A DNA stretch of 64,000 nucleotides from Pseudomonadota bacterium (GTDB taxonomy: Bacteria; Pseudomonadota; Alphaproteobacteria; UBA2136; UBA6156), in NCBI GenBank assembly GCA_016125035.1, contig WGMN01000016.1, forward strand, positions 1,554-65,553, in the 5' to 3' direction. How positions within the stretch are numbered: the stretch's first letter is position 1; each line of letters begins with the position of its first letter. Under the pieces are notes generated by a model. The model made no database searches, was not told the DNA's origin, and was given only the letters and a program-made list of their open reading frames with translations. The translations under genes were made by a program, and so were the position numbers. Shown here in pieces: positions 34,408 through 36,837 of the stretch.

Positions 34408-36018
34408 ATGGATACCAACCTCGCTTCACGGCTGAAAACTCTTATCCAGCAACGCGGTCTCACCGCGGCTGGCCTTGCGCGCCAGGCCGGGCTCTCGGTG
34501 GCCAGCCTCTCGCGCATCCTTTCTGGCCAAACCAACCCGTCTTTTCAAAGCGTCAGCCGCATCGCCGCGGCCCTGGGCGTGGGGCTGGAGAGCCTCTCCC
34601 CCGCCCCCACCCAGGCCACTGCCCCTCTGGCCGAGAACACCGTCCGCGCCGTCTATACGCTTGAAAACACCGACCATTCCACGCAAGAAGCCGGCCAGCT
34701 CATGCTCCAGGCCGCCCTGGGCAGCTGGAGCCACAGCTGGATGCACCCCTACGTCGCCGAAGGCATAGAAGCCCCCACCCTCGCCTCGGCCAGCCAAAGC
34801 GGCAGCCACCGCCAACAGGTGCAACTGGCCTTCCCCCACCAATTGGTAGAGGGCGGCAGCGTCGCCAGCCTGCTCAGCGTGGTCACCAGCGCGCTCTCGG
34901 GCACCGGCGCGCGGCTGCTGGATGTCACCGTCCCGCCCACCCTCATCCGCACCTTCTCCGGCCCGGCCTTCGGGCTGCGCGGCCTGCGCGATACCTTCAA
35001 CAAACACGGCCGCCCGCTGCTGGCCTGCACCATCCGCCCCATGCACGGGCTCTCTCCCCGGCTTTACGGCCGCGCGGCGTTCGAGGCCCTCATCGGCGGG
35101 GTGGATATCACCGTCGATCCCGCCCTGCTGCACTCCATCCCCTCCAACCCGTGGCGAGAACGCTTCCGCTTCGTGGCGGAAGCCGCCGCCGCCGCCTCGC
35201 GTGAAACCAATGAGTTTAAAACCCACGCCGTCAACATCACCGCCCCCACCATGGAAGACATGCTGGAACGCGCCACCTGGGCCAAAGAGCTGGAATTGGC
35301 GATGGTGATGGTCGACACCGCCGCCATCGGCTGGTCGGCGGTGCAAAGCTTGGGGGCATTCTGCGCCAAAAATGAGCTCATCCTGTGCGCGCTCGGCACC
35401 CGCAGCCTCAACGGCTCCATGCTGTCCGAGCAACTCCAGGCCAAGCTCCTGCGCATCTGCGGGGCCGATGCCGTCTCCACCGGCTCGCCGCTGCGCGGCA
35501 ACGTCTCCAACCGCCGCTACGTCACCGGGGTGCTCTCGGCGCTGCGCGATGATTCCCTCCCCGCCCAGCCAGAGGCCGGGCACCACCTGCCCCAACCTTT
35601 CGAGGGCCTCACCGCCGCTATCCCGGCGGTGGGCGGCGGCCACAACCCGTGGCAATTCCCCCGGCTGATCGACGCCATTGGCGATAACGCCCTCATCCAG
35701 TGCGGCGGCGCGGTCATGAGCCACCCCTGGGGCGGCCAGGCCGGGGCCACCGCCTGCCGCACGGCTATCGAGGCCCTGGTCCAGGCCCGCGGCGAGGGCC
35801 ACAACCTCAACGTGGAAGGCCGCTCCATCCTGCTCAAGGCCGCCAAATACAGCCCCGACCTCAAACAGGCGCTCGATACCTTCCAGGAAGGCTCGTTCCT
35901 GTTCGGCGTGGTGCACACCCTCTCCCGCCCCACGGAAGGCTCGATCCTGCCGGGAACCAACAACCCCAGCCCAACAATAACCCCCTTCCGCCGCCCGGAG
36001 CCGACCAATGAAGACTAG
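34408..36018 (+). CDS. XRE-family helix-turn-helix domain fused to a RuBisCO large-subunit-like protein (form-I-like, catalytic residues replaced)
   Basis: 536 aa. N-terminus [58 protein letters not shown] is an XRE HTH. The rest aligns with RbcL across both domains ([70 protein letters not shown]). The ORF-track extension to 33880 is rejected. Confidence 0.85.
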   Translation: [536 protein letters not shown]

Positions 36019-36502
36019 CGCCGATATACTGCAATTGGCCATGGAGCAAGCCGTCCAGGCCGCCGCACAAGCCGAGTACCCCTTCGGCGCGGCCATCGTC
36101 AAAGAGGGCCGTATAATCTGTGCAGAAGGTTCCGGAGCGGCAGAAAATGAGCCCGACCCCACCGCACATTCCGAGGTCAACGCCATCCGTAAAGCCGCCA
36201 AAATCCTCGGCACCGCCAACCTTTCAGGCTGCACACTGGTCTCCTCGTGCGAACCCTGTCATCTGTGCTTTGGCGCCATGTATTACGCCGGTATCCGAAC
36301 GCTGGTAACCGCAAGCTCGATTAAACAGATGGAAACCATCGGCTGGAAATGGCCGGAAAAAGACTTGGCCACCCACCCGGAAACCTACAAAACCGTAAAC
36401 ATCGCCCTCACCGAAGGACTGTTGCACAATGAGGTGATGGCCATGTACCGCCAGCATCCCCAGGCACGAATCACGAATAACGAATCACGAGTTACGATAT
36501 GA
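36008..36502 (+). CDS. CMP/dCMP-type (CDA fold) zinc deaminase, TadA/guanine-deaminase-like
   Basis: 164 aa with HSEVNAI (H.E) and CEPCHLC (PC..C) zinc motifs. Its start overlaps the upstream stop by 11 nt. Confidence 0.85.
   Translation: MKTSADILQLAMEQAVQAAAQAEYPFGAAIVKEGRIICAEGSGAAENEPDPTAHSEVNAIRKAAKILGTANLSGCTLVSSCEPCHLCFGAMYYAGIRTLVTASSIKQMETIGWKWPEKDLATHPETYKTVNIALTEGLLHNEVMAMYRQHPQARITNNESRVTI
36465..36499. repeat. heptamer tandem repeat CACGAAT-type x5, at the deaminase C-terminus next to the rbcS-like start
   Basis: cacgaatcacgaataacgaatcacgagttacgata encodes ARITNNESRVTI* and ends at the ATGA overlap with the next gene. Confidence 0.85.
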
Positions 36503-36837
36503 GATTTGAAACCTTCGCCTTCCTCCCCCCGCTCTCCCCCCAACAGGTGGAGGCGCAGGCCAACCATATCCTCACCCAGGGCCACCTCCCCACCATCGAG
36601 TTCGCCGAGAACCCCAGCAGTGCCGATTTCTACTGGCGCTCATGGCCCATCCAACCGGGGCGCATCAACAGCCTCACCGGCAAGCCGGAACCCCTCACCG
36701 CCGCCCACCTCACCAACCAGCTGGAAGCCTGCGCCCGCCGCCACCCCTACGCCTTCATCCGCCTGTCGGCCTATGATCCCAAAACCCGCCAAACCACCCT
36801 CTCCTTCATCACCAAAACCCCGCAGGAAGGCCAGTAG
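36499..36837 (+). CDS. RuBisCO small-subunit (RbcS/CbbS) homolog
   Basis: 112 aa. RFETFAFLPPLSPQQVEAQANHILTQGHLPTIEF...FYWRSW...HPYAFIRLSAYDPKTRQTTLSFI parallels cyanobacterial RbcS [34 protein letters not shown]...FYWTMW...[20 protein letters not shown]. ATGA overlap with the deaminase gene. Confidence 0.85.
   Translation: MRFETFAFLPPLSPQQVEAQANHILTQGHLPTIEFAENPSSADFYWRSWPIQPGRINSLTGKPEPLTAAHLTNQLEACARRHPYAFIRLSAYDPKTRQTTLSFITKTPQEGQ

What the first reader, a model, noticed from the sequence alone, without database searches (positions are those of the whole stretch)
34408..36837. Operon encoding an XRE-HTH::RuBisCO-large-subunit fusion with a dead active site, a CDA-fold deaminase and an RbcS homolog
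What the sequence shows:
- One uninterrupted ORF (34408-36018) starts with a textbook XRE helix-turn-helix ([54 protein letters not shown]).
- It continues into a full-length RuBisCO large-subunit fold that is closest, by my manual alignment, to form I.
- [41 protein letters not shown] aligns with spinach [41 protein letters not shown].
- [56 protein letters not shown] aligns with [56 protein letters not shown].
- [54 protein letters not shown] aligns with [56 protein letters not shown].
- Every catalytic position I can place is replaced: K175->R210, K177->M212, carbamylated K201->V236, Mg ligands D203->P238 and E204->A239. The HIHRAMH segment becomes CALGTRS. In the DHIHSGTVVGK segment, which becomes [11 protein letters not shown], H327->S and K334->R.
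- The last gene (36499-36837) is an unmistakable RbcS homolog.
- A zinc deaminase gene sits between them.
- All three genes overlap (ATG 36008 lies before TAG 36016-18; ATGA at 36499-36502).
- No prk, cbbX or carboxysome genes are in the window. The only pentose-phosphate gene (rpe) is 20 kb away.

Established knowledge: known RuBisCO-like proteins (form IV) keep the carbamylated lysine and never pair with small subunits.

Inference: this is a non-carboxylating L+S RuBisCO-derived assembly. It may have been recruited as a DNA-binding regulator, as a ligand-sensing scaffold, or as a platform for the deaminase.
Basis: partly seen in the sequence, partly recalled or inferred. Interest (0 to 1): 0.95.

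Follow-up and report, generated by a model that had tools for sequence, protein, structure and literature searches.

The report
RuBisCO turned into a DNA-binding regulator
A group of uncultured Alphaproteobacteria keeps a complete large-plus-small-subunit RuBisCO pair that has lost every carbon-fixing residue, gained a DNA-binding head and sits behind its own conserved operator, so the CO2-fixing enzyme has most likely been converted into a self-regulating gene switch.

Summary
ORF 34408-36018 encodes an XRE helix-turn-helix fused to a full form-I RuBisCO large subunit. K175, K177, K201, D203, E204, H294, R295, H298, H327 and K334 are all replaced. ORF 36499-36837 is a genuine RbcS.

- **Family.** At least 84 sequence clusters, 40-71% identical, all from MAGs mostly labelled Alphaproteobacteria. 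The same replacements are fixed throughout, including R210, R332, S357 and N413 in 84 of 84. dN/dS is 0.02-0.15.
- **Small subunit.** RbcS lies directly downstream in about 27 of 32 distinct loci and co-diverges with L (r = 0.79). One subclade lacks it downstream.
- **Deaminase.** It is not part of the system. It has no homolog in any other locus, and other lineages carry other passenger genes in that slot.
- **Operator (new here).** A 14-bp palindrome, TTSCATATATGSAA, lies within 150 bp upstream of the fusion gene. 25 of 28 loci have a site with at most one mismatch. Exact matches are about 450 times denser there than elsewhere. Sites are often paired about 21 bp apart.
- **In the window.** The only exact match is TTGCATAAATGCAA, 3 bp before the ATG.

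Best reading: an autoregulated XRE regulator that uses a dead RuBisCO L+S body as its assembly and ligand-binding module. Nothing like it turned up in nine full-text literature searches.

The parts
34339..34352 (.). Distal operator-like site TTCCACCTACGCAA. It has one mismatch to TTNCA-N4-TGNAA and starts 53 bp upstream of the proximal site.
   Evidence: It is nearly identical to the distal sites of orthologous loci L006 and L007 (TTCCATCTACGCAA).
34392..34405 (.). Proximal operator: the perfect 14-bp palindrome TTGCATAAATGCAA, 3 bp before the start codon.
   Evidence: It is the only match to TTSCANNNNTGSAA in 64 kb. The same motif lies upstream of the orthologs. It is also present in two loci that were not used to define it.
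34372..34400 (+). Putative promoter: -35 TTGCCA (34372-34377), 17-bp spacer, -10 CATAAA (34395-34400). This would start transcription at about the ATG, giving a leaderless mRNA. The proximal operator overlaps the -10 element and +1.
   Evidence: My own reading of the sequence, so inference only. The tool's stricter consensus scan found no promoter here.
34408..36018 (+). HTH::RbcL-like fusion gene, 536 aa.
   Evidence: The AF2 model has pLDDT 89. Foldseek matches form I RbcL with target-normalised TM 0.84-0.91.
34408..34593 (+). XRE/Cro-C1 helix-turn-helix domain, aa 1-62. It is followed by a poorly conserved linker, aa 63-77.
   Evidence: Pfam HTH_3, HTH_31 and HTH_26. The nearest solved structures are DdrO, SinR, ComR and 434 repressor. 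Mean column identity is 0.80 in the recognition-helix region and 0.27 in the linker.
34639..35892 (+). RuBisCO large-subunit body: N-domain aa 78-180 and TIM barrel aa 181-495. The carbamate/Mg site and the catalytic Lys and His residues are replaced. The Gly-rich phosphate-binding loops are kept.
36008..36502 (+). CDA-fold zinc deaminase, 164 aa, with HSE and PCxxC motifs intact. It is closest to B. subtilis guanine deaminase. It is a lineage-specific passenger gene, translationally coupled to both neighbours.
   Evidence: It is absent from all other loci. Other passenger genes occupy the same slot elsewhere.
36499..36837 (+). RbcS homolog, 112 aa.
   Evidence: Pfam RuBisCO_small E 2e-18. PDB RbcS E 8e-17 over the full length. 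The AF2 model has pLDDT 85.5, and Foldseek gives target-normalised TM 0.73-0.82 to cyanobacterial and ancestral RbcS. It is conserved downstream of the fusion gene in about 27 loci.
37106..37139 (.). GC-rich hairpin flanked by T/A runs. It looks like a bidirectional terminator ending the operon and the convergent alpha/beta-hydrolase gene.

Best explanation
The operon encodes an autoregulated XRE-family DNA-binding protein. Its oligomerisation and ligand-binding module is a catalytically dead form I RuBisCO, made of the fused large subunit together with a separately encoded small subunit.

Proposed mechanism:
1. The N-terminal HTH replaces roughly the first 35 residues of RbcL, the arm that in real RuBisCO lies next to the partner subunit's active site.
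2. RuBisCO large subunits form antiparallel dimers, so two HTH domains would be presented as a symmetric pair. That pair reads the palindrome TTSCATATATGSAA.
3. In this window the proximal site overlaps the likely -10 element and transcription start. A second site starts 53 bp upstream. Binding should therefore repress the operon and any passenger gene inserted in it.
4. The former active site has lost the carbamate/Mg centre. It keeps the glycine-rich phosphate cradle and has gained invariant Arg, His, Ser and Asn residues. It is proposed to bind an anionic small molecule, probably phosphorylated, which changes DNA binding through the adjacent linker.
5. RbcS is retained to assemble or stabilise the L oligomer.

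What is shown: the domain architecture, the fixed loss of catalytic residues, purifying selection, co-inheritance of L and S, and the conserved operator.

What is inferred: that this HTH is what binds that operator, repression, ligand gating, and stoichiometry.
For: **Architecture and fold.** Pfam, NCBIfam and PDB searches. AF2 and Foldseek agree for both L and S.

**A discrete, conserved family.** 84 full-length fusion clusters at 40-71% identity. Score then drops sharply to true RuBisCO, from 385 to 247 bits.

**The substitutions are fixed, not decaying.**
- K175->R in 84/84.
- K201->A/C/V, with no Lys in any member.
- D203->P in 83/84.
- H298->R in 84/84 and H327->S in 84/84.
- G380/G381 and G403/G404 are kept.

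**Conservation and selection.**
- The barrel and its former catalytic loops are the most conserved region. Mean column identity is 0.71, against 0.27 for the linker.
- dN/dS is 0.02-0.15 for L, for its HTH part and for S.

**RbcS.**
- It lies directly downstream in about 27 loci.
- It keeps the canonical RFETFSFLPPL and YW..WP motifs.
- L and S pairwise distances correlate, r = 0.79.

**Operator.**
- There is one exact match in the 64-kb window, at the gene's own start.
- There are 22 exact matches within 150 bp upstream in 17 of 29 sequences, against 5 in 450 kb elsewhere.
- 25 of 28 loci have a site with at most one mismatch. Paired sites are often about 21 bp apart.
- An unbiased listing of exact palindromes puts this motif family first.
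- Two divergent loci not used to define the motif carry it at -56 and -41.
- The single HTH-less member has no such site upstream.

**HTH type.** Its nearest solved relatives are dimeric operator-binding repressors: DdrO, SinR and 434 repressor.
Against: - There is no experimental evidence for DNA binding, ligand binding or L-S assembly.
- No multimer model could be run.
- No operator was found in front of any other gene, either in 64 kb of this genome or in about 450 kb of flanks. The only supported target is the operon itself. The complex could therefore have a main job other than transcription control.
- The pocket is more conserved than is usual for a sensor domain and contains residues that could be catalytic: D233, D237, H242, H412, H439 and C432.
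- One subclade lacks rbcS downstream, so S is not universally required.
- The motif was first recognised by eye in the same upstream regions. The enrichment P-value is therefore optimistic. The independent checks are.
Confidence: 0.6

Rival explanations
1. A bifunctional enzyme-repressor in the style of PutA or BirA. The remodelled RuBisCO pocket would catalyse a new, metal-carbamate-independent reaction on an anionic substrate. The HTH would serve only to autoregulate the amount of enzyme.
For: - The pocket loops are the most conserved part of the protein and hold invariant Arg, His, Asp, Ser, Asn and Cys residues.
- No target other than its own promoter was found.
- The RuBisCO superfamily is known to evolve new chemistries in the form IV RLPs (my own background knowledge).
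Against: - Every residue used for enolisation by the RuBisCO-family enzymes characterised so far is gone in all 84 members: the K201 carbamate, the D203/E204 metal ligands, K175 and H294.
- No conserved metabolic gene accompanies the pair. The conserved neighbours are only housekeeping genes: proS, lolCDE, glmM, ftsH and tilS.
Confidence: 0.2
2. A ligand-independent architectural protein. The dead L(+S) body would be only a large symmetric scaffold displaying several HTH domains, acting as a constitutive autorepressor or a DNA-bridging factor.
For: - RbcS is retained, and its established role is structural (my own background knowledge).
- Operator pairs are often spaced about 21 bp, two helical turns, which suits multivalent binding.
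Against: A pure scaffold would not need invariant polar and charged residues lining the old active site, nor intact phosphate-binding Gly loops.
Confidence: 0.12
3. One reading: the L+S assembly is a platform or partner for the CDA-fold deaminase, forming a three-component system.
For: In this window the three genes overlap and are probably translationally coupled.
Against: - The deaminase has no homolog in any other locus.
- Most loci have L and S adjacent.
- The slot holds unrelated genes elsewhere.
Confidence: 0.03
4. A decaying remnant of a lost Calvin cycle, an assembly or frameshift artefact, or a mobile defence or toxin-antitoxin module.
For: - No CBB genes were found in the window.
- The HTH gives weak PADLOC hits to generic regulators (CapH, RmrA).
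Against: - dN/dS is 0.02-0.15.
- The fusion is intact in 84 clusters.
- It sits in a fixed chromosomal position between housekeeping genes in many lineages.
- PADLOC matches only the HTH, and the RbcS has no hit.
Confidence: 0.02

Closest known systems
Form I RuBisCO (RbcL8RbcS8), green-type IA/IB and the reconstructed ancestor of SSU-bearing form I (PDB 7qsw)
   Same: - Same two-domain L fold (target-normalised TM 0.84-0.91) and same S fold.
- Same L-then-S gene order.
- Canonical RbcS N-terminal motif.
- Gly-rich phosphate loops, W66 and T173 are kept.
- In an NJ tree the clade groups with form I at 100% bootstrap.
   Different: - Every catalytic and metal-binding residue is replaced.
- The first ~35 residues are replaced by an HTH and a linker.
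- There is no CBB context.
- The hosts look like aerobic heterotrophs, with TCA-cycle and PDH genes in the window.
Form IV RuBisCO-like proteins (e.g. MtnW/YkrW enolase, OiaX)
   Same: Non-carboxylating members of the RuBisCO superfamily with altered active sites.
   Different: - RLPs are enzymes that form a separate clade, act as L2 dimers, have no small subunit and have no DNA-binding domain (my own background knowledge).
- This family scores far better against form I models. NCBIfam gives 313 bits for form I, against 115 for MtnW and 67 for OiaX.
- It branches with form I.
One-component regulators that use an enzyme fold as sensor/oligomerisation domain (MocR/GabR: GntR-HTH + aminotransferase fold; XRE-HTH + shikimate-kinase-like, NCBIfam PRK08154)
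   Same: An N-terminal HTH is fused to a repurposed enzyme fold. Autoregulation works through a palindromic operator. PRK08154 is itself a weak hit to this protein's HTH region.
   Different: The sensor here is RuBisCO, and it keeps a separately encoded accessory subunit. I know of no transcription factor with that arrangement.
Classical XRE repressors (434 cI/Cro, SinR, DdrO)
   Same: An HTH_3 domain of the same type. Predicted dimeric reading of a 14-bp inverted repeat. Operators overlap the regulator's own promoter.
   Different: The C-terminal part is a ~470-residue RuBisCO body rather than a small dimerisation or protease-sensitive domain.
RbcS-like modules reused outside catalysis (CcmM SSUL domains, Rca SSUL)
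   Same: A precedent for the small-subunit fold being used for a purely structural or binding role. NCBIfam gives a weak CcmM-domain hit to this RbcS.
   Different: Those modules bind active RuBisCO inside carboxysomes. Here S is a standalone protein paired with an inactive L.

Membership tests
Form I RuBisCO (functional carboxylase) | RbcL fold: N-terminal alpha/beta domain plus C-terminal TIM barrel | tested here: met
   Pfam and NCBIfam. PDB E 2.5e-86. AF2 plus Foldseek give target-normalised TM 0.84-0.91.
Form I RuBisCO (functional carboxylase) | Small subunit encoded next to the large subunit | tested here: met
   RuBisCO_small E 2e-18. The RbcS fold is confirmed. It is adjacent in about 27 loci.
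Form I RuBisCO (functional carboxylase) | Carbamylated K201 with Mg ligands D203 and E204, plus catalytic K175, K177, H294, H327 and K334 | tested here: not met
   All are replaced in the window protein and in all 84 family members.
Form I RuBisCO (functional carboxylase) | Calvin-cycle context (prk, cbbX/cbbQO, carboxysome genes) | tested here: not met
   None was found among the 33 window ORFs scanned against Pfam. None is among the conserved neighbours. Only 64 kb of the genome was visible.
Form I RuBisCO (functional carboxylase) | L8S8 quaternary structure | not testable with these tools
   No multimer prediction was possible. The only support is indirect: conserved RbcS motifs and L-S co-divergence.
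Form IV RuBisCO-like proteins | Phylogenetic placement in the form IV clade | tested here: not met
   The NJ tree groups the family with form I at 100% bootstrap and away from the other forms sampled. Form I models score best. The tree is NJ only, and form I is sampled thinly.
Form IV RuBisCO-like proteins | Acts as an L2 enzyme without a small subunit | tested here: not met
   An RbcS partner is conserved. Enzymatic activity cannot be tested here.
XRE/Cro-C1 family transcriptional regulators | HTH_3-type helix-turn-helix domain | tested here: met
   HTH_3 E 9e-12 and HTH_31 E 1e-11. PDB hits to DdrO, SinR and 434 repressor.
XRE/Cro-C1 family transcriptional regulators | Inverted-repeat operator at the regulator's own promoter | tested here: met
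XRE/Cro-C1 family transcriptional regulators | Sequence-specific DNA binding by the protein | not testable with these tools
   Needs EMSA, footprinting or DAP-seq.
CDA-fold nucleobase/nucleoside deaminases (middle gene) | H(A/S)E and PCxxC zinc motifs on the CDA fold | tested here: met
   dCMP_cyt_deam_1 E 4e-20. The alignment to guanine deaminase 1tiy shows both motifs.
CDA-fold nucleobase/nucleoside deaminases (middle gene) | Conserved component of the HTH-RbcL/RbcS system | tested here: not met
   tblastn finds no hit in any other locus.

The most novel reading that the evidence does not exclude
A RuBisCO-type L8S8 hexadecamer of about 570 kDa carries eight HTH domains arranged as four symmetric pairs. 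It works as a metabolite-gated transcription factor or DNA-bridging complex. The small subunit has been kept for hundreds of millions of years purely because the large-subunit oligomer cannot assemble without it. This would be the first non-enzymatic, DNA-binding member of the RuBisCO superfamily. It would also be a natural experiment separating RbcS's structural role from its catalytic role, because one subclade has secondarily lost S.
Probability: 0.3. Interest if true: 0.95.

Novelty: new variant of a known kind. Interest (0 to 1): 0.85.

Why it matters
1. **A non-enzymatic RuBisCO.** RuBisCO and its relatives are known only as enzymes. A conserved lineage in which the whole L+S unit has lost catalysis and gained a DNA-binding head and an operator would add a regulatory or structural branch to one of the most studied protein families.

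2. **The role of the small subunit.** Why form I RuBisCO needs RbcS is a long-standing question. Here S is under strong purifying selection although carboxylation is gone. That points to a structural role, an assembly dependence. The nested S-less subclade offers a natural reversal to compare against.

3. **A possible biosensor.** The pocket keeps a phosphate cradle and adds invariant arginines. That makes it a candidate ready-made sensor for a phosphorylated metabolite.

4. **An annotation hazard.** JGI names these proteins 'ribulose-bisphosphate carboxylase large chain' and 'small chain'. They can therefore be miscounted as Calvin-cycle potential in heterotrophic Alphaproteobacteria from freshwater, sludge, groundwater and marine metagenomes.

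Tried and rejected
- **Deaminase as a system component.** Rejected: tblastn found no homolog in the other 35 loci.
- **Defence or toxin-antitoxin module.** PADLOC hits only the generic HTH. The locus lies in conserved housekeeping synteny.
- **Structured RNA.** Rfam found only tRNA-Met at 32369-32445.
- **Regulon.** I looked for further operator copies in the window. With one mismatch there were 11 matches against 14.3 expected by chance, and only the two at the gene's own promoter are meaningful. In the flanks of other loci there were 5 exact matches in 450 kb, which I estimate is about what chance would give. No regulon could be defined.
- **HTH-operator covariation.** The recognition helix is almost invariant, so there is no covariation with operator position 3, and this test is uninformative.
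- **HTH-less member P0100.** I looked for an HTH hidden upstream in another frame and found none.
- **Promoter.** The tool's sigma-70 scan found none. The promoter and leaderless-mRNA reading is my own inference.
- **Literature.** Nine full-text searches used combinations of rubisco or RLP with helix-turn-helix, HTH, XRE, DNA-binding, pseudoenzyme or non-catalytic, and small subunit. None found a description. The GOS 2007 paper only notes unclassified RuBisCO-homolog groups in ocean data.
- **Tree.** A first bootstrap tree in Biopython timed out. It was redone with numpy distances.
- **Host taxonomy.** Not resolved beyond the MAG labels.

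
Full report
**1. What is in the window**

Three overlapping ORFs lie on the plus strand: 34408-36018 (536 aa), 36008-36502 (164 aa) and 36499-36837 (112 aa).

Pfam assigns the following domains:
- First protein: HTH_3 (aa 9-61, E 9e-12), RuBisCO_large (aa 191-492, E 1.5e-58) and a weak RuBisCO_large_N (aa 83-177).
- Second protein: dCMP_cyt_deam_1 (E 4e-20).
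- Third protein: RuBisCO_small (E 2e-18).

NCBIfam scores the large protein best against the form I model: 313 bits, against 196 for form III, 115 for the MtnW enolase and 98 for form II. All of these are below the curated cut-offs.

The best solved relatives are form I large subunits:
- The reconstructed ancestor of SSU-bearing form I, 7qsw_A, at E 2.5e-86.
- Then cyanobacterial IB, then IA, then IC and ID.

The small protein aligns end to end with RbcS chains at E 8e-17.

Structure predictions agree:
- The AF2 model of L has pLDDT 89 and pTM 0.79. It superposes on form I RbcL with target-normalised TM 0.84-0.91 at about 2 A rmsd.
- The AF2 model of S has pLDDT 85.5 and matches RbcS chains at TM 0.73-0.82.

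**2. The active site is gone, and its replacement is fixed**

The HMMER alignment to 7qsw and a MAFFT alignment with ten true form I sequences agree on these substitutions:

| Spinach residue | Window residue |
|---|---|
| K175 | R210 |
| K177 | M212 |
| K201 | V236 |
| D203 | P238 |
| E204 | A239 |
| H327 | S357 |
| S379 | G409 |

- The H294/R295/H298 segment is next to a gap and is aligned ambiguously, but no alignment restores a His.

Across 84 full-length homologs the substitutions are not random:
- K175->R in 84/84.
- K177->M/L/I.
- K201->A (41), C (41) or V (2), never K.
- D203->P in 83/84.
- E204->T in 77.
- H298->R in 84/84.
- H327->S in 84/84.
- H383->N in 84/84.

W66, T173, D198, D202, G380/G381 and G403/G404 are kept. 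New invariant residues appear: S360, P361, R369, R370, H412, W415 and Q431. H242, R363 and C432 are newly fixed in 81, 75 and 83 of the 84.

Mean column identity is highest in the barrel (0.71), where the former catalytic loops form the most conserved blocks. It is 0.80 in the HTH recognition-helix region and 0.27 in the linker. This is the signature of a remodelled, still functional pocket rather than decay.

**3. It is a family**

- A search of about 5.8 billion proteins returned 88 close homologs at 40-71% identity, almost all with HTH plus RuBisCO_large. Score then drops sharply, from 385 to 247 bits, to genuine form I enzymes.
- In one genome per GTDB species there are 30 loci, all MAGs. 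Most are labelled Alphaproteobacteria. Some are labelled Magnetococcales, and some carry evidently automatic labels such as Pseudomonadaceae.
- Sources named in the records include ponds, a reservoir, a lake, activated sludge, groundwater, sea water, a sponge and Antarctica.
- Public names are 'helix-turn-helix domain-containing protein', 'RuBisCO large subunit C-terminal-like domain-containing protein', 'hypothetical protein', or at JGI 'ribulose-bisphosphate carboxylase large chain'.
- Example accession pairs: PIZ29530.1 (L) with PIZ29529.1 (S), and HEX2858715.1 (L) with HEX2858713.1 (S).
- A Kimura-distance NJ tree with 100 bootstraps makes the fusion clade monophyletic (100) and groups it with form I (100), away from the other RuBisCO forms sampled. 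Form I sampling was thin and the method simple, so 'inside or sister to form I' remains open.
- dN/dS between close pairs is 0.02-0.15 for L, for its HTH part and for S.

**4. What travels with it**

- tblastn with the window's proteins shows an RbcS gene directly downstream of the fusion in about 27 of the 32 distinct loci where the downstream region could be examined, at 33-74% identity.
- The RbcS alignment keeps the canonical RFETFSFLPPL, YW..WP and C.RRHPYA..R motifs.
- L and S pairwise distances correlate, r = 0.79.
- A separate search with the RbcS found 53 clusters, many on the same contigs as L.
- A subclade at about 40% identity has no RbcS downstream (L004/L005, L030, L033, L037). 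In the NJ tree it is nested inside the S-bearing clade, which suggests secondary loss.
- One member of that subclade, P0100, also lacks the HTH.
- The deaminase has no homolog in any other locus. L and S are usually 10-100 bp apart.
- Where the slot is filled it holds unrelated genes: a VOC-like protein (L006), a membrane protein (L009), Nudix-like proteins (L016, L017), and an NTase-like gene plus others (L029).
- The window's deaminase is closest to B. subtilis guanine deaminase, and its zinc motifs are intact.
- The conserved neighbours are only housekeeping genes: dnaE, lolCDE and proS upstream, and glmM, ftsH and tilS downstream.
- The window as a whole looks like the core chromosome of an aerobic heterotroph. 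It carries citrate synthase, isocitrate dehydrogenase, the PDH complex, alaS and rpe at 13517-14185. No CBB or carboxysome gene was found.

**5. The operator**

The 85-bp region between the upstream ORF and the ATG contains TTGCATAAATGCAA at 34392-34405. It is the only match to TTSCANNNNTGSAA in the 64 kb, where 0.35 would be expected. A one-mismatch copy, TTCCACCTACGCAA, starts 53 bp further upstream.

The same motif recurs upstream of the orthologs:
- Exact matches to TTBCA-N4-TGVAA number 22 within 150 bp upstream, in 17 of 29 sequences. Elsewhere there are 5 in about 450 kb, roughly a 450-fold difference in density.
- With at most one mismatch, 25 of 28 loci have a site.
- The consensus is TTSCATATATGSAA, and many loci have two sites about 21 bp apart.

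I first saw the motif in these same regions, so I checked it in three independent ways:
- An unbiased listing of all exact 5+5 palindromes in the upstream regions puts TTCAT-N2-ATGAA, TTTCA-N4-TGAAA and TTGCA-N4-TGCAA at the top. Each has zero or one match elsewhere in 441 kb.
- Two very divergent loci fetched afterwards carry TTTCATATATGCAA at -56 (L037) and TTTCATATATGAAA at -41 (L039).
- The one HTH-less member has no such site in its 381 bp of upstream sequence.

The recognition helix, S(V/M)A(S/T)LSRILSG, is almost invariant. That fits the invariant TT.CA half-site. The HTH's nearest solved relatives are dimeric operator-binding repressors: DdrO, SinR and 434 repressor.

My own reading of the sequence gives a promoter of TTGCCA, 17 bp, CATAAA. 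This would start transcription at about the ATG, so the proximal operator overlaps the -10 element and +1. This is inference, and the tool's stricter scan found nothing.

**6. How it most likely works**

- *Shown.* The architecture, the fixed loss of catalytic residues, purifying selection, L-S co-inheritance, and a phylogenetically conserved palindrome at the gene's own promoter.
- *Inferred.* The HTH pairs of L dimers bind that palindrome and repress the operon. RbcS assembles or stabilises the oligomer. The Arg-rich, metal-free pocket, which keeps its phosphate cradle, binds an anionic and probably phosphorylated metabolite. Ligand binding is transmitted to the HTH through the adjacent linker, which replaces the N-terminal arm that in real RuBisCO orders over the partner's active site on closure (my own background knowledge).
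- *Passenger genes.* Genes inserted between L and S, and genes following S in some marine lineages (Peptidase_S51 and a Na/Ala symporter), would come under this control.
- *Main weakness.* No target other than the operon itself was found in the sequence available. An autoregulated enzyme or a ligand-independent scaffold therefore remain live alternatives.

**7. Comparison with what is known, and novelty**

- It is not a functional form I RuBisCO, because the catalytic residues were tested and not met.
- It is not a form IV RLP. It branches with form I, it has an RbcS, and it lacks the Mg/carbamate site that, as far as I know, the characterised RLP enzymes use.
- Functionally it resembles one-component regulators that reuse an enzyme fold as a sensor, such as MocR/GabR or the XRE-plus-shikimate-kinase-like regulators. 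None of those keeps a separately encoded accessory subunit.
- Loss of K201 is not unique in the superfamily. A motif scan of representatives shows many uncharacterised non-form-I members without it. Other RuBisCO-domain fusions also exist: TIR, IF-2B and APH.
- Nine full-text searches found no description of an HTH-RbcL fusion or of a dead L+S pair.

I rate it a new variant of known kinds (XRE regulators with enzyme-derived sensors, and non-carboxylating RuBisCO homologs) and of high interest.

Noticed in passing
window 36008-36502; L006 9630-9995; L009 2174-2710; L016 9692-10096; L017 9659-10057; L029 1622-4031: The short gap between the L and S genes acts as an insertion slot. Different lineages carry unrelated passenger genes there: a guanine-deaminase-like gene, a VOC/glyoxalase-like gene, a membrane protein, Nudix-like genes and an NTase-like gene. 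All would be co-transcribed under the operator.
   Followed up: partly
P0210, P0183, P0186, P0175 (representative search): Other RuBisCO-large-domain fusions exist in metagenomes. They are TIR_2+RuBisCO-like (with K201 replaced by F), IF-2B (ribose-1,5-bisphosphate-isomerase-like)+RuBisCO, and RuBisCO+APH kinase-like. The TIR fusion hints at a defence or signalling use of the fold.
   Followed up: partly
P0117, P0118, P0128, P0131, P0135, P0159, P0160, P0169, P0171, P0176, P0179, P0181, P0194, P0203, P0220, P0222: Many non-form-I RuBisCO superfamily representatives lack Lys at the GGxDxxKDDE motif position. This comes from a regex scan, not a curated alignment.
   Followed up: no
L036 (P0100), whole 1.85-kb contig: A member of the S-less subclade has no HTH. 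No HTH is encoded in any frame upstream, and no operator palindrome is present upstream either. It is known from a single short contig.
   Followed up: partly
L004/L005, L030, L033, L037: A low-GC subclade at about 40% identity, labelled Magnetococcales or UBA2136, has the HTH fusion and the operator but no rbcS downstream. It is nested within S-bearing lineages in the NJ tree, which suggests secondary loss or relocation of S.
   Followed up: partly
L033 9705-9718: A second exact copy of that locus's operator, TTTCATATATGAAA, lies about 110 bp after the fusion gene's stop codon. Its target is unknown.
   Followed up: no
L013 and L020 (same MAG, MFD03283_ilm_asm_bin13): One MAG carries two different fusion loci, at 62% and 54% identity to the window protein. 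This is either paralogy or a mixed bin.
   Followed up: no
window 33390-33800 and 33915-34322 (+): Two small ORFs with signal-peptide-like N-termini and no Pfam match lie immediately upstream of the operator region. They were not among the neighbour families recurring in at least four loci.
   Followed up: partly
window 34392-34410: There is no Shine-Dalgarno sequence. The palindrome ends 2 nt before the ATG, and most orthologs also lack an SD. The gene may be translated from a leaderless mRNA.
   Followed up: partly
window 1-64000: GC skew is uniformly negative, from -0.07 to -0.38 in every 2-kb bin. Nearly all long genes are on the minus strand. The fusion operon is one of the few plus-strand units.
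   Followed up: no
L001-L003 7685-10053: In a marine lineage found on 24 or more contigs from several metagenomes, rbcS is followed on the same strand, 6 bp later, by a Peptidase_S51 gene and then a Na+/alanine symporter gene. These are possible regulated outputs in that lineage.
   Followed up: no
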